Shown: positions 25,750 to 62,478 of the stretch, in pieces | How positions within the stretch are numbered: position 1 is the stretch's first letter | Layout of the letters: each line of letters begins with the position of its first letter | From: an uncultured Alphaproteobacteria bacterium | Lineage (GTDB): Bacteria > Pseudomonadota > Alphaproteobacteria > Rhizobiales > Kaistiaceae | Assembly (NCBI GenBank): GCA_963730325.1 | Contig: CAVSRC010000006.1 | Coordinates: 2,693 to 66,692, forward strand | DNA: 64,000 bases | Direction: 5' to 3' | The notes under the pieces: generated by a model | Database searches by the model: none | What the model was told of the DNA's origin: nothing | Seen by the model: the letters and a program-made list of their open reading frames with translations, nothing else | Translations under genes and position numbers: made by a program

Positions 25750-25846
25750 GGCCCGGCTTGCCCCAGCGTGCCCCATGACGCCCGAGCCTTTCGCGCCCCT
25801 CACGCTTCCTCTACGGTCTCTGGCGGGACCGAGGGAGACGACCCGC

Positions 25847-26380
25847 ATGCGCTTCTCCGCGCTTCTCGGCGGATGGCTGATCGTGGCGGCGCTCGCCGCG
25901 CCGGCGGCGGCGACGCCCTATCCCGGCCAGGTGGCGGCGGCGGAGGCCGGCGACCCGCGAGCCCAGTTCGCGCTCGCCATCATGTACGACACCGGCGACG
26001 GGGTGCCGCACGACTTTCCCCTGGCGCTCACCTGGTTCCGCCGTGCGGCGGAGGGCGGCTACGACGTGGCGCAGGCCAAGCTCGGCCTCATGTACCTGGT
26101 CGGCTGGGCGGTGCCGCGCGACCCGGGCGCGGCGGCGCGCTGGTATCGCAAGGCCGCCGATCAGGGCAACACAATCGCGCAATTGCGGCTGGCGCGGCTT
26201 TCTGCTTACGGCATCGGCGTGCCCCGCTCGCTGGTGGACGCGTATGCGTGGGCGCGGCTGGCGGCGTCCGGGGGCGACAGGCTGGCGGCGTGGCTTGCCG
26301 CGCGCTACGCGGAGCGCATGAGCCCGGACGAGATCGCCGAAGCCGAGACCCGGGTGCGGGCCCGGCGGCCGGCACGCTAG
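25847..26380 (+). CDS. Secreted Sel1-repeat (TPR-like) protein
   Basis: Signal peptide MRFSALLGGWLIVAALAAPAAA. Repeated Sel1 units (AQFALAIMYDTGDGVP.D...A..WFRRAAEGG; AQAKLGLMYLVGWAVPRD; AQLRLARLSAYGIGVPRS). Confidence 0.85.
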   Translation: MRFSALLGGWLIVAALAAPAAATPYPGQVAAAEAGDPRAQFALAIMYDTGDGVPHDFPLALTWFRRAAEGGYDVAQAKLGLMYLVGWAVPRDPGAAARWYRKAADQGNTIAQLRLARLSAYGIGVPRSLVDAYAWARLAASGGDRLAAWLAARYAERMSPDEIAEAETRVRARRPAR

Positions 26381-26386
26381 GCTCAC

Positions 26387-27868
26387 TCAGCCATTGCCGT
26401 TGCGGCCGTTGGCGCGCGGACGATCGGGGATGGTGATGGCGAAGGTGGCGCCGGGGCCGCCATCGACCGGGGCGATGGTGCCGCCATGGGCGCGCACCAG
26501 CTCGGCGGCGATGGCCAGACCCAGGCCGGTGCCGCCCGGACTGACGGACCCCTGGAAGGCGCGGAAGAGCGAGGCGCGCGCCTTTTCGGGCAGGCCGGGG
26601 CCGGTATCGGCGACCCGCACGGTGACGGCCGACCCGTCGCGGGCAGCCGTCACGGTCAGCCGGCAGATCACCGCCGGGTTGGGATCGGCGGCCATCGCCT
26701 GAACCGAATTGCGGCCGAGATTGACCAGGACGCGGAAGAGCTGGTCGGGGTCGGCATCGACCTCGAGACCCGCCGGCACGTGGTTCTCCCAGGTGATCGT
26801 CGGATGCTCGACCACGCCGAGCGCATCGGCGACGTCATCGACCAGCCGGCCGAGGGCGACCAGGCGGCGGGCCGGCGCCGGCTCGCGGGCGCGGCCATAG
26901 GTGAGCGTCGACTGGCAATAGGCGATGGCGCGGTCGAGCGCGCCGATCAGCTTGGGCGCGAAACGCTGGACGTTGGGGTCGGGCAGGCTGCCGAGGCGGT
27001 CGGAAAAGAGCTGCGCCGAGGCCAGCATGTTCCTGAGGTCGTGATTGATCTTGGAAACGGCCAGGCCGAGATCGGCGAGGTGGCGCTGCTCGCGCAGCGT
27101 GCCCTGCAGATCGCGCTCCATGGCGGCCAGACGCTCCTCGGCGATGCCGACCTCGTCGCCGCGGCCGCTCGGCACGATCACGCGGCTGGCGTCCTCCGGC
27201 TCCTCCGAAAACGACATGATGTTCTCGGTGAGGCGGCGCACCGGCCTGACCAGCAGCCGGTTGATGGTGAAGTAGAGCAGGCCGGCGGTGATGATCGAGA
27301 TCAGCGCCGCCAGCCAGACGATGTTGACCGAATAGTCGAGCATGGCGGCGCGCAGCGGCCGGTCGCTGATGATGAGCTCGAGAACCGCGCCGGAGCGCGA
27401 CGCGCCAATGACCCTCAGCGTGCGCGCCTCGCGGGCAAACAGCGTATCGAAGGCATCGACGACCTCGGCGACCGGCTCCATGATCCTGAGATCGGCGGTG
27501 CGATCGACCTTGGGCGGCATGTCGACGGTGGCGATCAGGCGGCTGGCGGCGCCGGTGCGGATGGCGATGGCCTTGGCGCCGACCGCGGTCAGCAGGTCCT
27601 CCTGGATGCTGCGCGGCACCTCGGAGGCGACCGACTCGGCCAGAACCGAGGCGGCGGCATCGGCCATGGTCATGCGGTCCATGAGCCAGTTGGCGCGGAA
27701 ATTGGCGATGGAGGGGACGTAGATCAGCACCTCGGAGAGCATGACGTAGAGCACGGTCAGCGCCAGCAGCTTCCACGACAGGCCGAAGCCGCGCCGCGCG
27801 GAAGCCCTGGATGCTTTCACGGTTTCGGTCGTCTTGTTCTCCTCGCCGTTGCCGGGCCGGTCGGTCAT
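26387..27868 (-). CDS. Membrane sensor histidine kinase (no cognate response regulator adjacent)
   Basis: Two hydrophobic segments, H-box INHDLRNMLASAQLF, and ATPase boxes LVNLGRNSVQAM, DTGPGLP, GTGLGLAIA. Confidence 0.9.
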   Translation of the reverse strand: MTDRPGNGEENKTTETVKASRASARRGFGLSWKLLALTVLYVMLSEVLIYVPSIANFRANWLMDRMTMADAAASVLAESVASEVPRSIQEDLLTAVGAKAIAIRTGAASRLIATVDMPPKVDRTADLRIMEPVAEVVDAFDTLFAREARTLRVIGASRSGAVLELIISDRPLRAAMLDYSVNIVWLAALISIITAGLLYFTINRLLVRPVRRLTENIMSFSEEPEDASRVIVPSGRGDEVGIAEERLAAMERDLQGTLREQRHLADLGLAVSKINHDLRNMLASAQLFSDRLGSLPDPNVQRFAPKLIGALDRAIAYCQSTLTYGRAREPAPARRLVALGRLVDDVADALGVVEHPTITWENHVPAGLEVDADPDQLFRVLVNLGRNSVQAMAADPNPAVICRLTVTAARDGSAVTVRVADTGPGLPEKARASLFRAFQGSVSPGGTGLGLAIAAELVRAHGGTIAPVDGGPGATFAITIPDRPRANGRNGNG

Positions 27869-27872
27869 CGGC

Positions 27873-29336
27873 TCAACCCAGCTTCCTCAGCGCGTTGATG
27901 ATGCGCTTGCGCCAAATGCCGGTCAAACCGGGCTTTTGTGAGCCATCGCGCTCCGCCAGACCGGCGGCGACGCGCCGCGAGATCTCGGCGCGCGTCAGAT
28001 AGGGCGCCGGCAGCGCGGCCAGCGCCGAAAGCGGCAGGTGCTGGGAGACGGCCAGCGACCACAGGGCGATCATCTCGCCGGCATCGTGGCCAGCGATCGC
28101 CGCGCCGAGAACCCGGCCGCCGCGGCCGGCCACCACCTTGATCATACCGGCCGGCATGCGCTCGATCTGGGCGCGCTCGTTCTCGGCGAAGGGGAAGCGC
28201 AGAACGCGCACGGCCGCACCGTGACGGCGGCGCGCCTCGGCCTCGTCGAGGCCGACGCTGGCCAGGCCCGGATCGGTGAAGGCGACGAAGGGCGCTTCGC
28301 CGGACCGGTCGGCGACCGGCAGGCGGAAAAGGATCGCGCGCACCACCTGGCGCGCCTGCGCCTGGCTGCGCGTGGCGTCGGCGCGCCCGGCGACGGCATC
28401 GCCGATGGCATAGACGCGGCGGTTGCCGGTCCTCAGATTGCGGTCGACGACGATGCCGCCGGCATCGGCGCGGATGCCGGCGATGGTGAGATCGAGGCCG
28501 TCGATATTGGGTTTGCGGCCGCCGGCGATCAGCAGATGCGAGCCGTCGATGGCGGCGGCGTCTCCCTCCGGGTCGGAAACGGTGAAGCGCACGCCGCCAC
28601 GGCGCCGGCCGACCGAGACGATATCGACGCCGACGCGCACGCGGATGCCCTCGGCGCGCAGCCGGTCGACGACGATGGCCGTGAGCTCCGGATCGGCCTC
28701 GGGCAGGGCCGGACCGCGATCGAGCACGGTGGTGTCGATGCCGAGCCGGTTGATGGCCTGCGCCAGCTCCAGCCCCTCGCGGCCGGCGCCGAGCACGATG
28801 AGATGGTTCGGCTTGCGGCTGAGATCGAACAGGCCGGAGAGCGTCAGCACGTCGATGCCGTCGAGGCCGGGGATATCGGGTGGCGCCGGCTCGCTGCCGA
28901 CCGCCAGGATGGTGCGGCGGGCGCGGATGGTGGCCTCGCCGGCCTCGATCGTGTCGCGATCGGTGAAGCGGGCGGCCCCCTCGACCACGCGGATATCGAA
29001 GGCGGCCAGGCGCTCGGCCGAGACATTGGCGGCAATCGCGGCACCGACGCCGGCCATATGCTCGCGCACCTTGGCAAAATTGACCTGGAGCGGCGCCCCG
29101 GTGACGCCCATGGCGGGGCCGCGGCGCAGAAATTCGTTGATTTCCGCGGCGACGAGGAGCGCCTTGGCGGGAATCGAGCCGGCGGTCAGGTCGCTGCCGC
29201 CGAGCGGCCCCTTGGCGACCAGGACGACGGGAACGCCCTCGCCGGCAGCGGCAAAAGCCGCGGCAATGCCCGCCGGGCCGCCGCCTATCACGCATATGTC
29301 AGGAGTCAGGGTGTCCGGCATGTGTGTCGTCTTCAA
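27873..29336 (-). CDS. Class I pyridine nucleotide-disulfide oxidoreductase homologue (lipoamide dehydrogenase-like) lacking the redox-active cysteines
   Basis: FAD motif VIGGGPAG and NAD motif VLGAGREG are retained. The canonical GGTCLNVGCIPSKALL site reads GGSDLTAGSIPAKALL, so both Cys are replaced. The stop lies 4 nt before the kinase start. Confidence 0.85.
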   Translation of the reverse strand: MKTTHMPDTLTPDICVIGGGPAGIAAAFAAAGEGVPVVLVAKGPLGGSDLTAGSIPAKALLVAAEINEFLRRGPAMGVTGAPLQVNFAKVREHMAGVGAAIAANVSAERLAAFDIRVVEGAARFTDRDTIEAGEATIRARRTILAVGSEPAPPDIPGLDGIDVLTLSGLFDLSRKPNHLIVLGAGREGLELAQAINRLGIDTTVLDRGPALPEADPELTAIVVDRLRAEGIRVRVGVDIVSVGRRRGGVRFTVSDPEGDAAAIDGSHLLIAGGRKPNIDGLDLTIAGIRADAGGIVVDRNLRTGNRRVYAIGDAVAGRADATRSQAQARQVVRAILFRLPVADRSGEAPFVAFTDPGLASVGLDEAEARRRHGAAVRVLRFPFAENERAQIERMPAGMIKVVAGRGGRVLGAAIAGHDAGEMIALWSLAVSQHLPLSALAALPAPYLTRAEISRRVAAGLAERDGSQKPGLTGIWRKRIINALRKLG

Positions 29337-29435
29337 ATCCTAGCGATTCCTGCGGTCGAAACGGTGGCAATGATAGCCGCTTTCCGGTAAAAGCCACCGC
29401 ACGAGAACGACCGCCGCGGCCGGAGGTGGTTCGCG

Positions 29436-29464
29436 TTGACTCGATTCAACCCGCTCCTTATAAG
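29436..29464 (+). promoter_or_regulatory. Sigma70-type promoter of rpmH
   Basis: TTGACT (29436-29441), 17-nt spacer, TATAAG (29459-29464), about 35 nt upstream of the rpmH ATG. Confidence 0.5.
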
Positions 29465-29499
29465 CCCGGCGCGGCCGGTCCGCGCGGAGACGACACGAT

Positions 29500-29634
29500 A
29501 TGAAACGTACCTATCAACCGAGCAAGCTGGTCCGCAAGCGCCGCCACGGCTTCCGCGCGCGCATGGCCACGACCGGCGGCCGCAAGGTGATTGCCGCCCG
29601 CCGCTCCCGCGGCCGCAAGCGGCTCTCGGCCTGA
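29500..29634 (+). CDS. rpmH: 50S ribosomal protein L34
   Basis: Own translation: [44 protein letters not shown] (44 aa, below the ORF-track cutoff). Conserved position upstream of rnpA. Confidence 0.97.
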
Positions 29635-29655
29635 GGTCGGGCAGATCCGGCCGGC

Positions 29656-30015
29656 ATGGAGCGCCTGAGGCGCCGCGCCGATTTCAAGGCTGTTGCCGGC
29701 GGCAGACGGGTCTCGCGACCGGGTTTCGTGCTGCAGGCGCGAGAGAATTCCGAGGGCGACGGGCAGAATCCACCGCGGATTGGGTTCACGGTGACGCGGA
29801 AAATCGGCAATGCGGTCGTGCGCAATCGCATCCGCCGGCGGCTCAGGGCAGCGGTCGGCGCCGTCGGTGGAAACCTTGAAACCGCCACGGATTATGTGCT
29901 TGTCGGGCGTCGTGCCGCCCTGACCCTTCAATTCCAGCGGCTGGTTACCGATCTAGAGACCGGGTTGGCCGCACTATCGCGCAACCGACAAGCGCCGGAC
30001 AGGTCCGTTCAATGA
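29656..30015 (+). CDS. rnpA: Ribonuclease P protein component
   Basis: Basic RNR-like motif KIGNAVVRNRIRRRLR. In the rpmH-rnpA-yidC synteny, with an ATGA overlap with yidC. Confidence 0.92.
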   Translation: MERLRRRADFKAVAGGRRVSRPGFVLQARENSEGDGQNPPRIGFTVTRKIGNAVVRNRIRRRLRAAVGAVGGNLETATDYVLVGRRAALTLQFQRLVTDLETGLAALSRNRQAPDRSVQ

Positions 30016-32042
30016 CCGACAATAATCGCAATTTCATCGTGGCGATCGTGCTGTCGATGGTCGTTCTGTTCGGCTGGCAGTTCTTCATTGCCGGGCCGCA
30101 GATCGACCAGGCGCGCAAGCAGCAGGAGGCCGCCCAGCAGCAGGCGGCGGAACAGCAGCAGCAGCAAGCGCAGCAGCCGGCAGCGACGGCCGACCAGTCC
30201 GCAAGCGGCGCCGGCACCACGCCGGCACCGGCGGCCGGCACGGCGCCCGCAGCGTCGGTGCAGCAGACGGCCGAAACCCGCGACGAGGCGCTCGCCCAGA
30301 GCAAGCGGGTGCCGATCGCGACGGCGAGCATCACCGGCTCGATCAACCTCACCGGCGGCCGCGTCGACGATATCCGCCTCAACGACTATCACGAGACCGT
30401 CGACAAGCAGAGCCCGACCATCATCCTGCTCAGCCCGAGCGGCGGGCCGGAGGCCTATTTCGCCGATTTCGGCTGGGCGGGCGCGGCCGGCGCCGGACCC
30501 CTGCCCGGTCCCTCGACCGTATGGACGGCACCGGCGGACGCGACGCTGACGCCGGACACGCCGGTGACGCTGACCTACGACAACGGCGCCGGCCTCGTCT
30601 TCAGCCGCCAGATCGCCATCGACGACAAGTTCATGCTGACGGTGAACGACAGCGTCACCAACAAGGGCAATGCCAGCGTCGCCCTGTCGCCCTACGGCCG
30701 CATCACCCGCGTCGGCGAGCCCAAGGTCTCGGGCTACTGGATCCTGCATGAGGGCCTGGTCGGCGTGATCGGCGACAAGAGCCTGCAGGAATACAAGTAC
30801 AAGGACATCCTGAAGGACCACGAGGTGTCGTGGACCGACAAGACCGGCGGCTGGCTCGGCATCACCGACAAGTACTGGGCGGCGACGCTGATCCCCGAGC
30901 AGACCCAGGCCTACACGGCGCGCTATATCGGCAAGGAAAGCGGCACCACGCCGGTCTACGAGACCGACTTCACCGCCGCGGCGGAGTCTCTCGCGCCCGG
31001 CGCGACCATCAGCCAGACCACCCACCTGTTCGCCGGCGCCAAGCAGGTGAGCGTGCTGTCCGCCTACAGCAGCAAGCTCGGCATCGAGAAATTCGACCTG
31101 CTGATCGACTGGGGATGGTTCTTCTTCATCACCAAGCCGATGTTCTACGTGATCGACTGGCTGTTTCGCGTGTTCGGCAATTTCGGCGTCGCCATCCTGC
31201 TGGTGACCGTGATCGTCAAGGCGATCTTCTTCCCGCTCGCCAACAAGTCCTACAAGTCGATGAGCGCGATGAAGAAGGTGCAGCCGCAGATGACGGCGCT
31301 GCGCGAGCAATACAAGGACGACAAGGTCAAGCAGCAAGAAGCCTTGATGCAGCTCTACAAGACCGAGAAGATCAACCCGCTCGCCGGCTGCTGGCCGATG
31401 GTGATCCAGATCCCGGTCTTCTTCTCGCTCTACAAGGTGCTGTTCGTCACCATCGAGATGCGCCACGCGCCGTTCTTCGGCTGGATCCAGGACCTCTCGG
31501 CGCCCGACCCGACGCACATCTTCAACCTGTTCGGACTGCTGCCCTACGACCCGGCAACGGTGCCGATGATCGGCTCGTTCCTGGCGATCGGCATTTGGCC
31601 GGTGATCATGGGCATCACCATGTTCGTGCAGATGAAGCTGAACCCGACGCCGCCCGACCCCACCCAGGCGATGCTGTTCACCTGGATGCCGGTGCTGTTC
31701 ACCTTCATGCTGGCGTCGTTCCCGGCCGGCCTGGTGATCTACTGGGCGTGGAACAACACGCTGTCGGTGACCCAGCAATACATCATCATGCGGCGCCAGG
31801 GGGCCGAGGTGGATCTCCTCGGCAACATCCTCGGGACCTTCGGGGTGAAGCCGAAGAAGAAGCCGGTTCATGTCGCCGCGCCGTCGAGCAGCCACGCCCC
31901 GGCAACGCCGAAGGCGGCCAACAATTCGGCGGCGCCGCAGGCGACCCAGCGCAAGTCGGCAAAATCGACGGTGAAATCGCGCCGCGCTGCCCGGGCCAAG
32001 GCGAAGTCCAAGGCCGCCAAGCCCGCCGACGCCAAGAGCTAG
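30012..32042 (+). CDS. yidC: Membrane protein insertase YidC
   Basis: N-terminal TM, large periplasmic domain, and the conserved 60-kDa IMP core (..[12 protein letters not shown].., ..[10 protein letters not shown]..). Also a Q/A-rich insert and a long Lys/Ala-rich C-terminal tail. Confidence 0.95.
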
Positions 32043-59823: not shown

Positions 59824-61893
59824 TCAGGTCGCGCCCGGGGCGAGCGGAACAGCCAACAGGAAACTCGTGCCGCTCTTGCGTTCGGGCACGATTGTCAAGG
59901 AAAGGCCGCGATCGCGCGCAAGCGAACAGGCGATCGACAGGCCGAGGCCGTGCCCCTGGGGAGCGGAGGCATCCGCAGCAAGCCGCACCGCGCGCCCGCT
60001 CGCCCTGGCGAAGTCTGCGGCCGTCATGCCCGGCCCGGTATCGTGCACCTCGATACGCAGCGATCGCCCGTCCCGCCGGCAGCCGAGCAGGACGCGGCCT
60101 TGCCGTGTATATTTGATCGCATTGGCGACCAGATTGGTGACAATGCGCATCAGGACGAGCGGTTCGACGGCCGCCTGAGCCGAGGTTCCGACATAGCGGA
60201 GCTCGAGCGCCTTCTCGGCTGCATCCGGCAGGAACATCTCGTGGATGCCCTTGAGCACATCGCCGACGGCGAGTTTCTCCGTTCCCTCGTCCGCCCCGGT
60301 TGCCGGCGGCACCGGTTCCATGGCGATTGCACGATCCAGATGCCCGGTCAGAAGCTTCTCGAGATAGTCGAATGTGCCCTCTATGCGCTTGCGGCGCGCC
60401 GAGTCGGTGCCGTGGTCCGCCACCAGTCCCCTCAGGTCCAGTCGCAGCGCGTGCAGCGGCTGGTTCAGGTCGTGGATGGCGTCGGTGATCCGCCGCCCCT
60501 TCATGTCGGCCAGTCGACAGACAAGCGCGTATTGCTCTTCCAGATCCTGCAGCCTCTGGCTGAGTTCCAGACTGCGCATGGTGGTGTCGAGATTTTCCTT
60601 CAGCGCTTGATGGCGGGCCTGCCGCAGTTGGTTGAAATGGTCCCAGATCGCCAGTCCCATCAGCGCCGCATCCAGCACCATCACGATGCGCATGGAATCG
60701 AACTGCACCTCCTCCGATATCTCGATCCCCAGCCAGTGGCGGGCCGTCATGATCGCACTTGAGATGACGGCCCCGGTCCAGGCGATCACGTAGAAACGCA
60801 CCTGCTTGAAGCGGGTCCGCGCGGCAACAAGGCCCGCCATGACGAAGAGCAGGATCGCCGCGAAGGCGACCAGCACGAGTATCTTCTTGATCTGCTGGTC
60901 TTGCTGGTCGTCGAGCAAAGCGGAGGCGAGCAGCATGCCGAGCGTGACCAGGACGACCGCGCCCAGCGACTTGTCGAGTAGCGGGTGGTAGCGGCGCGTC
61001 TGCAGGAAGAGCATCGCATAGACGGCGCCGCACAGGATGATGCCGGAACCGAGCAGGATGGTTGCGTTGCTGTTGAAATGGGGCGCGTCCGGCCACAGGA
61101 ATTTGAATGCGCTGCCGTCCGCGTGCATGATGAAGAGAAGCGCGCTGCCCGAATAGCCGGCATAGGCGAGGAACACCGGTCGCCGCACAATCGCAAAGGC
61201 GAAGAGCGCGATGAGGATGAGGATCAGCATCATCCCGTAGTAGACGAAGTTCTTCGCCGTCGCGCGCGCGCTGATCGCCTCGAAACTCTCCAGCAACTCG
61301 ATGGAAAAGGCGAGCGCGGAGGATCCGCCGGACCAGTAGCGGACATAGACAGTCTTGTGGGCACCGGCAGGCAGGATCATGGGCACGGCAAGCTGTGGAT
61401 AGGACAGCGGACGCGCGGAGAAGGGCGAGTCGGCGTCCTGGTTCGCAAGCGTTTCGAACGAACCGTCGTCACCGACCAGATAGACGGTGAAGAGCTGCAG
61501 GAAATTCTCGCGAAACAGGAGCCGCCAGCGTTCCAGCGACGGGCTGTGGTTGGTCAGCGAGAAGCGCAGCCAGATGACCGACCCGGTATAGCCGAAATCG
61601 GCGCTGCGACCCTGAACGGGCTGAAAGCGCGCCGACACGTCCGGCCGGGTCACGTCTTCGATCCCGAGTTTCCGGCCCGGATCGAGAAGATAGTCGACAT
61701 GCCCCTGCATGCCGCCGACGCCAACCGGACCGCGAAGGTCGATGCCCGGACTTGCACTCGCCGTGATTGTATGAAGGATGACGACGAGACAAGCCGCAAC
61801 CAGGATTAGGTGCCGCTGCCGCGGGATCCGTGCGAACGCAGCCAGGACACGGATGGCTCCATGCCGATCACAGCGGTTATCGCCGACGACCAC
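59824..61893 (-). CDS. 7TMR-DISM-type sensor histidine kinase
   Basis: Signal/anchor LILVAACLVVILHTITASA, 7TMR-DISMED2-like extracellular domain (YLLDPGRKLGIEDV..FGYTGSVIWLRFSL), seven hydrophobic helices, H-box DAIHDLNQPLHAL, and ATPase boxes NLVANAIKY, DTGPGM, GHGLGLSIA. The start is uncertain; the first canonical in-frame start upstream of the signal sequence is GTG 61893. Confidence 0.85.
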   Translation of the reverse strand: MVVGDNRCDRHGAIRVLAAFARIPRQRHLILVAACLVVILHTITASASPGIDLRGPVGVGGMQGHVDYLLDPGRKLGIEDVTRPDVSARFQPVQGRSADFGYTGSVIWLRFSLTNHSPSLERWRLLFRENFLQLFTVYLVGDDGSFETLANQDADSPFSARPLSYPQLAVPMILPAGAHKTVYVRYWSGGSSALAFSIELLESFEAISARATAKNFVYYGMMLILILIALFAFAIVRRPVFLAYAGYSGSALLFIMHADGSAFKFLWPDAPHFNSNATILLGSGIILCGAVYAMLFLQTRRYHPLLDKSLGAVVLVTLGMLLASALLDDQQDQQIKKILVLVAFAAILLFVMAGLVAARTRFKQVRFYVIAWTGAVISSAIMTARHWLGIEISEEVQFDSMRIVMVLDAALMGLAIWDHFNQLRQARHQALKENLDTTMRSLELSQRLQDLEEQYALVCRLADMKGRRITDAIHDLNQPLHALRLDLRGLVADHGTDSARRKRIEGTFDYLEKLLTGHLDRAIAMEPVPPATGADEGTEKLAVGDVLKGIHEMFLPDAAEKALELRYVGTSAQAAVEPLVLMRIVTNLVANAIKYTRQGRVLLGCRRDGRSLRIEVHDTGPGMTAADFARASGRAVRLAADASAPQGHGLGLSIACSLARDRGLSLTIVPERKSGTSFLLAVPLAPGAT

Positions 61894-62478
61894 GCTTTCA
61901 TCGTTGCCGGCATCTCGGCGGCGCTCGCCGAAACCTTCGGCTTCGATATCGTGGGTACGGCCCGCGACGGCATCGAGGCGATCGTGCTGATCAAGAAGCA
62001 CCGCCCCGACTGCGCGATTCTCGACCTCTCCATGCCGGGCGCCAACGGCCTCGAAGTCTTCGTCGAGGCAAGGCGCTGGTCGCCACAGACCCGCGTGGCG
62101 ATCGTCACCGGCAATCCGTCCGCCGCGATGTTCGCGCAGCTCGTCGGAGCCGGCGTCGACGGCATCTTCCTGAAGAGCGCCCCCGCCGAGGAAATCTGCG
62201 CCGGTCTCGGCGCAGTCGCGCGCGGCGTCAGGGTCATTCCGCCTGAAATCGGCACCGCCGGCCACCCTGGCAGCGAGAATGCGGAACTGACCGCCCGAGA
62301 AATCGAGGTCCTGCATGGCATCGCCCGCGGCATGTCCAACGCGCAGATGGCCGAATCGCTTGGCGTCAGCCCCAAGACCGTCGACAGCCACCGCACGACA
62401 CTGATGCGAAAGATGGACGTCCATTCCACCGCCACGCTTCTGGTTCGTGCAATCCGCGACGGCCTGATCGACGTATGA
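61861..62478 (+). CDS. NarL/FixJ-family response regulator
   Basis: REC domain (VIADDH, DLSMPG, K in FLKS) plus LuxR-type HTH LTAREIEVLHGIARGMSNAQMAESLGVSPKTVDSHRTTLMRKM. Confidence 0.92.
   Translation: MPITAVIADDHAFIVAGISAALAETFGFDIVGTARDGIEAIVLIKKHRPDCAILDLSMPGANGLEVFVEARRWSPQTRVAIVTGNPSAAMFAQLVGAGVDGIFLKSAPAEEICAGLGAVARGVRVIPPEIGTAGHPGSENAELTAREIEVLHGIARGMSNAQMAESLGVSPKTVDSHRTTLMRKMDVHSTATLLVRAIRDGLIDV

What the first reader, a model, noticed from the sequence alone, without database searches (positions are those of the whole stretch)
26387..29336. Cysteine-less lipoamide-dehydrogenase homologue placed directly upstream of an orphan membrane histidine kinase
The 487-aa flavoprotein keeps the FAD (VIGGGPAG) and NAD(P) (VLGAGREG) dinucleotide motifs. 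The class I redox-disulfide site GGTCLNVGCIPSKALL reads GGSDLTAGSIPAKALL, so both Cys are lost (to Asp and Ser). The C-terminal His-Glu dyad region (H-P-T-L-S-E in LpdA) reads P-Y-L-T-R-A-E. It therefore cannot act as a disulfide reductase. Its stop is 4 nt from the start of a sensor histidine kinase that has no response regulator nearby. One plausible reading is a degenerate enzyme reused as an NAD(P)H/FAD-binding redox sensor that feeds the kinase. A secreted Sel1-repeat protein converges on the pair.
Basis: partly seen in the sequence, partly recalled or inferred. Interest (0 to 1): 0.6.

Follow-up and report, generated by a model that had tools for sequence, protein, structure and literature searches.

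The report
Cysteine-less flavoprotein in the cenK operon
A mercuric-reductase-like flavoprotein that has lost its catalytic cysteines is still kept directly in front of the cell-envelope sensor kinase CenK. This gene pairing turns out to be old and widespread in Alphaproteobacteria, so it gives a testable lead to CenK's unknown input signal.

Summary
The 482-aa flavoprotein (27873-29321, minus strand) has Asp and Ser where the CxxxxC cysteines should be. It has one Cys in total, intact FAD and NAD(P)H glycine motifs, and stops 4 nt before a 493-aa membrane histidine kinase.

New findings:
- The kinase is very probably the orphan cell-envelope kinase CenK.
- The flavoprotein is the orthologue of S. 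meliloti "merA1". The ancestral layout is rpmH <> dedA(TVP38)-flavoprotein-cenK.
- In 74 of 121 other CenK-bearing alphaproteobacterial genomes the flavoprotein lies directly upstream of cenK. All 20 sampled there keep both cysteines.
- The Tyr-type C-terminal motif (PY[PL]T..E) is typical of the whole clade and of MerA. It is not decay.
- Cysteine loss happened at least 6 times. One loss lies at the base of the Bauldia family (Kaistiaceae), where dedA is also gone.
- Cys-less proteins stay under purifying selection (dN/dS 0.24-0.39). They keep the FAD motifs and a clade-specific C-terminal helix. Only 40 of 119 keep the NAD(P)H motif.

Best reading: an FAD-binding pseudo-reductase kept as a dispensable accessory of CenK. 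Binding to CenK is not shown. The scan noted the same kind of protein in two other genomes.

The parts
27873..29321 (-). Cys-less MerA1-type class I flavoprotein (482 aa from ATG 29321; alternative TTG 29336 gives 487 aa)
   Evidence: Pfam Pyr_redox_2 + Pyr_redox_dim. All NCBIfam models score below cut-off. AF2 model has pLDDT 90.4. Foldseek TM is 0.84-0.88 to LpdA and MerA.
29268..29285 (-). FAD-binding GxGxxG (GGGPAG)
   Evidence: The three glycines are 99% conserved in 119 Cys-less and 100% in 21 Cys+ relatives. The following acidic residue E36 is Ala only in this protein (29214-29216).
29163..29201 (-). Former redox-disulfide site GGSDLTAGSIPAK (Cys1 to Asp44, Cys2 to Ser49)
   Evidence: In 119 relatives the Cys1 position is N (80) or D (36), and the Cys2 position is S, A, T or G.
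28773..28790 (-). NAD(P)H-site GxGxxG (GAGREG), intact here
   Evidence: Intact in only 40 of 119 Cys-less relatives against 21 of 21 Cys+.
27984..28004 (-). C-terminal PYLTRAE: MerA-type Tyr...Glu in place of the HPT..E dyad
   Evidence: Aligns to MerA 'apyltmae'. PY[PL]T..E occurs in most Cys+ and Cys- clade members.
27876..27917 (-). Clade-specific basic amphipathic C-terminal helix IWRKRIINALRKLG
   Evidence: AF2 predicts a helix at 469-481 after a disordered linker. The tail is conserved in Cys+ and Cys- orthologues and absent from the paralogues.
27869..27888 (-). Junction: GAGGAAG Shine-Dalgarno inside the flavoprotein 3' end, TGA, 4-nt spacer GCCG, then the kinase ATG
26387..27868 (-). 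CenK-type orphan sensor histidine kinase (493 aa; two TM segments at about 33-55 and 180-203, periplasmic loop of about 125 aa, H-box INHDLRN with H276, HATPase_c)
   Evidence: Single copy in the genome and in 37 of 41 relatives. Its context matches S. meliloti SMc01718-merA1-SMc01716 (cenK).
29322..29499 (.). 178-bp divergent promoter region between the flavoprotein-cenK operon and rpmH
   Evidence: The same rpmH<>...cenK frame is found in other Hyphomicrobiales.
29500..29634 (+). rpmH (ribosomal protein L34), the syntenic anchor, followed by rnpA (from 29656; stop not pinned) and yidC (30012-32042)
   Evidence: Pfam Ribosomal_L34 at 4e-23 and Ribonuclease_P at 7e-25. YidC domains.

Best explanation
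What it is (well supported). The gene is the Bauldia-family (Kaistiaceae) descendant of a MerA-like class I flavoprotein, annotated 'merA1' in Sinorhizobium. Ancestrally this gene sits in the operon dedA(COG0398/TVP38)-flavoprotein-cenK, divergent from rpmH-rnpA-yidC. In this family the dedA gene was deleted. The flavoprotein lost its redox disulfide (Cys1 to Asn/Asp, Cys2 to a small residue). The gene stayed translationally coupled to cenK.

How it works (inferred).
- It can no longer reduce disulfides or Hg(II).
- It still folds as the dimeric flavoprotein and most likely still binds FAD.
- It keeps the clade's basic amphipathic C-terminal helix, which I read as a membrane or partner contact.
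- It is retained as a non-catalytic, dispensable accessory of the membrane kinase CenK. It may tune CenK activity or expression, possibly through the state of its flavin.

CenK then signals to the response regulator CenR, encoded elsewhere, to control cell-envelope genes.
For: Identity and clade:
- The flavoprotein is monophyletic with the cenK-linked flavoproteins and separate from the genome's own LpdA/GR-type paralogues (SH-aLRT 99).
- It shares the PY[PL]T..E motif and the C-terminal tail with them.
- S. meliloti lists SMc01718 (TVP38)-merA1-SMc01716 (cenK) as a putative operon (PMC12445080). SMc01716 is cenK (PMC9561847 and PMC1233412).
- A Rhizobiaceae locus shows VTT-Cys+ flavoprotein-kinase.

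Linkage:
- In every one of about 31 related genomes with the flavoprotein, the kinase lies immediately downstream.
- Across the class it lies directly upstream of cenK in 74 of 121 CenK-bearing genomes, and within 2.6 kb in 6 more (hand tally).
- 16 of 20 sampled loci also have dedA upstream.

Retained function:
- dN/dS is 0.24-0.39 for Cys-less pairs.
- 145 positions are at least 90% conserved, Asn/Asp is fixed at Cys1, and FAD GxGxxG, E36 and GD are 97-100% conserved.
- The protein has no hydrophobic segment, so it is cytoplasmic.

Context:
- The CenK signal is explicitly unknown (PMC10470753).
- The CenR regulon includes dsbC, msrA, ccm genes and the thioredoxin-like SrlA.
Against: - No direct evidence of contact with CenK.
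- CenK persists without the flavoprotein in Bradyrhizobium, Mesorhizobium, Brucella, Nitrobacter and one Bauldia genome, where rpmH sits 225-341 bp from cenK.
- The Cys+ flavoprotein also occurs in genomes without CenK: 140 genomes have the flavoprotein against 123 with CenK. Its primary role is therefore not kinase-bound.
- Selection on the Cys-less form is relaxed compared with Cys+ forms (dN/dS 0.09-0.15) and with the neighbouring kinase (0.12-0.30).
- The window's own protein uniquely has Ala at the FAD-ribose Glu (E36), so FAD binding may be weakened here.
Confidence: 0.45

Rival explanations
1. It is still an enzyme. It would be a flavin-only oxidoreductase that does not need the disulfide, for example an NADH:quinone reductase/diaphorase or a transhydrogenase-like activity. 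This is the role reported for cysteine-deficient relatives such as M. tuberculosis LpdA (Rv3303c) and SthA (from my own knowledge). The link to cenK would then be only shared transcription.
For: - The window's protein keeps both GxGxxG motifs, the GD motif and an acidic residue at the end of the NAD beta2 strand.
- The fold is fully canonical.
- Cys+ orthologues occur without CenK, so the clade has a kinase-independent job.
- Rv3303c (1xdi) is a detectable homologue at 8.6e-34.
Against: - The NAD(P)H GxGxxG motif is intact in only 40 of 119 Cys-less relatives, with Asp, Asn or Thr at the second Gly. No NAD(P)H-dependent activity can therefore be the conserved function of the clade.
- NF005883 (quinone dehydrogenase LpdA) and NF003585 (SthA) score far below cut-off, 199 against 479 and 187 against 465 bits.
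- E36 is Ala in this protein.
Confidence: 0.25
2. It is a decaying relic. Once dedA and the disulfide were lost, the gene became functionless. It persists only transiently, or because its reading frame carries the promoter-proximal part and the ribosome-binding site of cenK.
For: - The whole gene was deleted repeatedly in the same syntenic slot.
- There is a fragment in L046 and an N-terminally truncated copy in L054.
- dN/dS is 2-3 times higher than in Cys+ orthologues.
- The NAD motif is eroding.
- The Cys-less clade sits on a long stem branch of 0.6.
- The cenK Shine-Dalgarno sequence lies inside the gene.
Against: - dN/dS is well below 1 in all ten Cys-less Kaistiaceae pairs.
- No stops or frameshifts occur in about 120 full-length homologues spanning 55-100% identity.
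- 145 positions are at least 90% conserved, including the FAD motifs, Asn/Asp at Cys1 and the C-terminal tail.
- Translational coupling would not conserve the amino-acid sequence.
Confidence: 0.15
3. One reading: a degenerate enzyme that binds NAD(P)H and FAD and reports the cytoplasmic NAD(P)H/NAD(P)+ ratio to the kinase.
For: Both dinucleotide motifs are intact in this particular protein. The operon link is conserved. From my own knowledge there is a precedent in Caulobacter KidO, an NAD(H)-binding oxidoreductase homologue that regulates the kinase DivJ.
Against: Two thirds of the Cys-less relatives have a broken NAD(P)H motif while still linked to the kinase (L003, L007 and L011-L017). Linkage predates Cys loss.
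Confidence: 0.1

Closest known systems
Sinorhizobium/Ensifer 'MerA1' (gene between SMc01718 and SMc01716; Smed_0084 in E. medicae) and the NCBIfam subfamily NF004991 (PRK06370.1-3, FAD-containing oxidoreductase)
   Same: Same clade by tree. Same PY[PL]T..E motif and C-terminal R-rich tail. Same position upstream of cenK and divergent from rpmH-rnpA-yidC.
   Different: MerA1-type proteins keep GGDCLNYGCVPSK and an intact NAD(P)H motif and are preceded by a TVP38/DedA gene. Here both cysteines and the dedA gene are gone. The score against NF004991 is 309 bits against a 620 cut-off, and a Cys+ orthologue reaches 450. The biochemical function of MerA1 itself is not established. Only Hg-related expression was reported (PMC7840509).
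Mercuric reductase MerA (Tn501 1zk7/1zx9; Lysinibacillus 5x1y)
   Same: Best solved sequence match (2.7e-57), same fold, same Tyr-type 'PYLT..E' motif.
   Different: No CxxxxC, no C-terminal Cys pair, no mer operon. TIGR02053 scores 293 against 454 bits. It cannot reduce Hg(II).
Cysteine-deficient flavoprotein disulfide reductase relatives: M. tuberculosis LpdA Rv3303c (1xdi) and soluble transhydrogenase SthA
   Same: Class I fold with an incomplete disulfide/His-Glu apparatus. They show that the scaffold can be reused without disulfide chemistry (my own knowledge; homology).
   Different: Those enzymes keep one Cys and a functional NAD(P)H site and are not kinase-linked. Here both Cys are lost and the NAD(P)H motif is dispensable in the clade.
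COG0398 DedA/TVP38 proteins fused or adjacent to pyridine nucleotide-disulfide oxidoreductases
   Same: The ancestral operon partner. The fusion with PF07992/PF02852 is the commonest COG0398 fusion (PMC10127716). 16 of 20 sampled alphaproteobacterial cenK loci have it.
   Different: In the window's genome the operon-type DedA was not found. The three other VTT proteins match at E >= 4e-4 only.
CenK-CenR cell-envelope two-component system (Caulobacter CC0530/CC3743, R. sphaeroides RSP_1056/RSP_0847, S. meliloti SMc01716/SMc03820)
   Same: [quoted passage not shown] It is orphan and single copy, and has the S. meliloti cenK gene context.
   Different: Orthology rests on synteny and distribution, not on a direct alignment with a named CenK. 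The CenR partner in this genome was not identified. The CenK papers I read do not mention the flavoprotein neighbour.
KidO of Caulobacter (NAD(H)-binding oxidoreductase homologue that regulates the kinase DivJ and FtsZ)
   Same: A precedent, from my own knowledge, for a catalytically inactive oxidoreductase homologue acting on a histidine kinase in Alphaproteobacteria.
   Different: Unrelated fold (aldo-keto reductase). No sequence relationship. Not tested here.

Membership tests
Class I pyridine nucleotide-disulfide oxidoreductases (LpdA/GR/MerA group) | Two-Rossmann fold plus dimerisation domain (Pyr_redox_2, Pyr_redox_dim) | tested here: met
   Pfam 2.9e-45 and 4.6e-20. AF2 pLDDT 90.4. Foldseek TM 0.84-0.88.
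Class I pyridine nucleotide-disulfide oxidoreductases (LpdA/GR/MerA group) | FAD GxGxxG and GD motifs | tested here: met
   GGGPAG and IGD are present. The ribose-binding Glu36 is Ala in this protein only.
Class I pyridine nucleotide-disulfide oxidoreductases (LpdA/GR/MerA group) | Redox-active CxxxxC next to the flavin | tested here: not met
   GGSDLTAGS. There is a single Cys in the protein, at residue 10.
Class I pyridine nucleotide-disulfide oxidoreductases (LpdA/GR/MerA group) | NAD(P)H GxGxxG | tested here: met
   GAGREG is present here, but the motif is intact in only 40 of 119 Cys-less relatives.
Dihydrolipoyl dehydrogenase | TIGR01350 score above cut-off and the HPT..E His-Glu dyad | tested here: not met
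   259 against 408.8 bits. The motif is PYLTRAE.
Mercuric reductase MerA | TIGR02053 cut-off, CxxxxC, C-terminal Cys pair, mer operon | tested here: not met
   292.6 against 454.45 bits. No cysteines at the site or in the tail. The neighbours are rpmH and a kinase.
Mercuric reductase MerA | Tyr in the C-terminal PYLT..E motif | tested here: met
   Aligned to 5x1y 'apyltmae'.
cenK-linked MerA1-type flavoprotein clade | Monophyly with the flavoproteins encoded upstream of cenK, apart from the housekeeping paralogues | tested here: met
   Quick IQ-TREE with 55 rows, SH-aLRT 99.
cenK-linked MerA1-type flavoprotein clade | Position: same strand, directly upstream of cenK, divergent from rpmH | tested here: met
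cenK-linked MerA1-type flavoprotein clade | Clade-specific basic C-terminal tail ending in FG/LG | tested here: met
   IWRKRIINALRKLG.
cenK-linked MerA1-type flavoprotein clade | NF004991 subfamily cut-off | tested here: not met
   309 against 620 bits. A Cys+ orthologue also falls short at 450.
CenK histidine kinase (for the downstream gene) | Two TM segments with a periplasmic loop of about 130 aa, DHp H-box, HATPase_c, orphan | tested here: met
   Description in PMC1233412.
CenK histidine kinase (for the downstream gene) | Gene context of a named cenK (S. meliloti SMc01718-merA1-SMc01716) | tested here: met
CenK histidine kinase (for the downstream gene) | Specific phosphotransfer to CenR | not testable with these tools
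   Needs biochemistry. CenR was not identified in this genome.

The most novel reading that the evidence does not exclude
The DedA(TVP38)-flavoprotein module encoded with cenK across Alphaproteobacteria is the long-sought input, or a modulator, of the CenK-CenR cell-envelope pathway. It would couple membrane-lipid or thiol-redox status to the kinase. In the Bauldia family the flavoprotein has been stripped of catalysis and survives purely as a regulatory pseudoenzyme bound to CenK.
Probability: 0.25. Interest if true: 0.8.

Novelty: new variant of a known kind. Interest (0 to 1): 0.6.

Why it matters
CenK-CenR is essential or important for envelope integrity and cell division in Caulobacter, Rhodobacter and Sinorhizobium. 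Its activating or inhibiting signal is explicitly unknown (PMC10470753). A gene pair kept in about 60% of CenK-bearing genomes, usually together with a DedA-family membrane protein, is a concrete candidate for that input. It is genetically testable in tractable model species with existing reporters, for example S. meliloti PsrlA-gfp.

The Cys-less Bauldia-family proteins work as a natural separation-of-function experiment. Whatever keeps them under selection does not need disulfide chemistry, the DedA partner or, in most members, NAD(P)H.

If instead the protein is a flavin-only enzyme or a slowly dying relic, the finding is ordinary comparative genomics.

Tried and rejected
- Complex prediction. 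The flavoprotein (alignment A3) was run against the CenK cytoplasmic part, residues 206-493 (alignment A2). Score 0.00, no verdict, so it counts as neither support nor evidence against.
- Sel1-repeat neighbour as an ExoR-like periplasmic partner of the kinase. Rejected, because no homologue was found next to cenK in any of the loci with downstream flank, including a same-genus locus. Its NCBIfam hits (MerG 88.7 against 350 bits, ExoR 28 bits) are weak.
- Nearby response regulator. The only one in the window is NarL/GerE-type, 34 kb away.
- A dedA remnant in the 178-bp upstream region, or an operon-type DedA elsewhere in the genome. None was found. The ORFs 29436-29879(+) and 29458-29931(-) are artefacts over rpmH and rnpA.
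- Misalignment hiding the cysteines. Excluded, since the protein has one Cys.
- Assignment to LpdA, MerA, GR, SthA, RclA or quinone-reductase LpdA equivalogs. All score far below cut-off.
- Statistical test of co-loss of dedA and the cysteines. The direction is consistent (3-4 of 5 independent pairs, none opposite), but there are too few pairs (p 0.125-0.5).
- Literature searches for the neighbours of Caulobacter and Rhodobacter cenK. These found only RSP_1057 listed as 'Detoxification' in the RpoHII regulon. Its identity as the flavoprotein is unverified.
- Identification of CenR in this genome. Not attempted, because no reference sequence was available.
Full report
**1. The observation**

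Two minus-strand genes fill 26387-29336. The upstream one translates to a class I flavoprotein with these motifs:
- VIGGGPAG;
- GGSDLTAGSIPAKALL;
- VLGAGREG;
- PAPYLTRAE.

Its likely start is ATG 29321, giving 482 aa, identical to the database entry P0004. It has Pfam Pyr_redox_2 and Pyr_redox_dim. Every NCBIfam equivalog scores far below cut-off. The best are NF004991 at 309/620, MerA at 293/454 and LpdA at 259/409 bits.

Alignment to solved MerA and LpdA puts Asp44 and Ser49 on the two catalytic cysteines. It puts 'apyltrae' on MerA's 'apyltmae'. The protein has one Cys in total (C10), so a misalignment cannot hide a CxxxxC. The genome's five paralogues all have C....C and HPT..E.

The stop codon is followed by GCCG and the ATG of a 493-aa kinase. 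A GAGGAAG sequence lies inside the flavoprotein's 3' end. The kinase has two hydrophobic segments (about 33-55 and 180-203), an H-box (H276) and HATPase_c. Of the 34 receiver-domain matches in the genome, the nearest is a NarL-type regulator 34 kb away.

**2. What the two genes are**

The kinase is single copy here and in 37 of 41 related genomes. Named Hyphomicrobiales carry an orthologue at 50-57% identity. These include Mesorhizobium, Bradyrhizobium, Nitrobacter, R. palustris, Brucella, Phyllobacterium and Azorhizobium.

[quoted passage not shown] Orthologues were listed in just these genera (PMC1233412). S. meliloti cenK is SMc01716 (PMC9561847). A transcriptome table lists SMc01718 (TVP38/TMEM64), merA1 (NAD(P)/FAD-dependent oxidoreductase) and SMc01716 as one putative operon (PMC12445080).

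A Rhizobiaceae locus (L029) shows exactly that layout: VTT-domain protein, Cys+ flavoprotein, kinase. In the window, rpmH (29500-29634), rnpA and yidC lie divergently upstream.

The same rpmH<>...cenK frame recurs in other loci. The spacing depends on which genes are present:
- about 2.4-3.4 kb with dedA and the flavoprotein;
- about 1.6 kb with the flavoprotein only;
- about 1.2 kb with dedA only;
- 225-341 bp with neither.

I conclude that the kinase is the CenK orthologue and the flavoprotein the MerA1 orthologue. This orthology rests on synteny, architecture and distribution. I could not align against a deposited CenK sequence.

**3. How old the linkage is**

In the 41 relatives, every genome with the flavoprotein orthologue (E < 1e-90, about 31 genomes in 17 families) has the kinase immediately downstream.

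I also searched an even sample of 250 alphaproteobacterial genomes that are at least 90% complete. The kinase is present in 122 of them. One, G247, is unpublished and is left out of the counts below.

| Position of the flavoprotein in the 121 remaining genomes (hand tally) | Genomes |
|---|---|
| Directly upstream of cenK, same strand | 74 |
| Within 2.6 kb, same strand | 6 |
| Elsewhere in the genome | 26 |
| Not found | 15 |

The flavoprotein is also present in genomes without the kinase (140 genomes in all). I fetched twenty adjacent pairs from different families. All have GGDCLNxGCVPSK and an intact GGGPIG. Nineteen show PYPT..E, and nearly all show the basic C-terminal tail. Sixteen have a detectable dedA upstream.

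The DedA(COG0398)-oxidoreductase association is known as the commonest fusion of that DedA subfamily. Its function is unknown (PMC10127716). The CenK papers I read do not mention these neighbours, and they state that the CenK signal is unknown.

**4. The cysteine loss**

All readable sequences among the 120 closest database homologues (55-100% identity) lack both cysteines. On a tree of 50 cenK-linked flavoproteins rooted with the own paralogues, the Bauldia-family clade (22 rows) is monophyletic. It sits on a long stem and is entirely Cys-less. Further losses occur in Pseudolabrys-type and other lineages. At least 6 changes of state are needed.

| State of the 50 cenK-linked loci | dedA upstream | no dedA upstream |
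|---|---|---|
| Cys+ | 20 | 1 |
| Cys-less | 2 | 27 |

In independent contrasts, dedA goes the same way in 3-4 of 5 pairs and never the other way. There are too few pairs for significance. The operon-type DedA was not found anywhere in the window's genome.

**5. Is the Cys-less protein alive?**

dN/dS (NG86) values:

| Gene set | dN/dS |
|---|---|
| Cys-less flavoprotein pairs | 0.24-0.39 |
| Adjacent kinase in the same pairs | 0.12-0.30 |
| Closely related Cys+ flavoprotein pairs | 0.09-0.15 |

Conservation among 119 Cys-less homologues:

| Feature | State |
|---|---|
| Cys1 position | Asn 80, Asp 36 |
| Cys2 position | Ser, Ala, Thr or Gly |
| FAD GxGxxG | 99% |
| Ribose-binding Glu36 | 116 of 119 (Ala only in the window's protein) |
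| GD motif | about 100% |
| NAD(P)H GxGxxG intact | 40 of 119, against 21 of 21 Cys+ |

The C-terminal tail is kept. AlphaFold predicts it as a helix (469-481) behind a disordered linker, on an otherwise canonical fold (pLDDT 90.4).

So the protein is under real but relaxed purifying selection. It conserves FAD binding and the tail, but not NAD(P)H binding. Signs of decay exist elsewhere: a fragment in L046, a truncated copy in L054 and clean deletions.

**6. Explanation**

Shown:
- identity and clade;
- loss of the disulfide;
- a MerA-type Tyr motif shared by the whole clade;
- an ancient operon link with cenK and dedA;
- loss of dedA in this family;
- purifying selection;
- a retained FAD signature and tail, and an eroding NAD(P)H site.

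Inferred: the protein is a cytoplasmic, FAD-binding pseudo-reductase retained for a role that needs neither disulfide chemistry nor DedA. Given the unbroken translational coupling, that role is most simply an accessory one for CenK at the membrane.

The thiol-redox flavour of the CenR regulon fits a redox-related input but does not prove one. That regulon includes dsbC, msrA, ccm genes and thioredoxin-like SrlA.

They are weighed in their own sections. Dispensability in many lineages and the lack of any interaction evidence keep my confidence moderate.

**7. Novelty**

Cysteine-deficient members of this enzyme family are known. The DedA-oxidoreductase association is also known. The gene order can be read from S. 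meliloti annotation.

I did not find the following described:
- the class-wide dedA-flavoprotein-cenK unit as a feature of the CenK system;
- a stably maintained, doubly Cys-less, family-wide subclade with a decaying NAD(P)H site.

I class it as a new variant of a known kind. It has practical value as a lead to the CenK signal. Two earlier first-reader notes of this scan describe the same kind of protein in two other genomes.

Noticed in passing
window 29436-29931: The long ORFs listed on both strands here (29436-29879 +, 29458-29931 -) are high-GC artefacts. The real genes are rpmH (29500-29634, +) and rnpA (from 29656, +; stop not pinned), followed by yidC.
   Followed up: yes
window 25775-26380 (+): Sel1-repeat protein with a signal-peptide-like N-terminus and a weak MerG-like hit (88.7 against 350 bits). 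Its stop codon lies 6 nt from the kinase stop, leaving no room for a terminator hairpin between the convergent genes. It is not conserved next to cenK in relatives.
   Followed up: partly
window 29214-29216 (residue 36 of the flavoprotein): The Glu that binds the FAD adenosine ribose is Ala in this protein. 116 of 119 Cys-less and 21 of 21 Cys+ relatives have Glu. This could weaken flavin binding in this particular strain.
   Followed up: no
window 61810-62478 (+): The only response regulator in the window is NarL/GerE-type. It is not the OmpR-type partner expected for CenK.
   Followed up: partly
L046:3454-3783; L054:3020-3916; L056:2407-4161: In other Hyphomicrobiales MAGs the flavoprotein upstream of cenK is a 110-residue fragment (L046), lacks its N-terminal half (L054), or has lost its stop so that the frame runs on into the kinase region (L056). 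These look like stages of gene decay in the same slot.
   Followed up: partly
G015, G018, G022, G024 (same family as the window): The four family members that keep the kinase but lack the flavoprotein have the most divergent kinases (57-63% identity to the window's, against 65-71% for genera that keep it). This could reflect phylogeny or co-evolution. It is not resolved.
   Followed up: no
literature, R. sphaeroides RSP_1057: The gene numbered next to cenK (RSP_1056) is listed as 'Detoxification' in the singlet-oxygen RpoHII regulon (PMC3441632). If it is the MerA-like flavoprotein, the Cys+ form is stress-induced. Its identity was not verified.
   Followed up: partly
class-wide sample: The Cys+ flavoprotein orthologue is also present in about 30 small alphaproteobacterial genomes (1.3-2.5 Mb) that lack a CenK orthologue. 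Several hits lie in open frames of 700-800 aa, which suggests DedA fusions.
   Followed up: no
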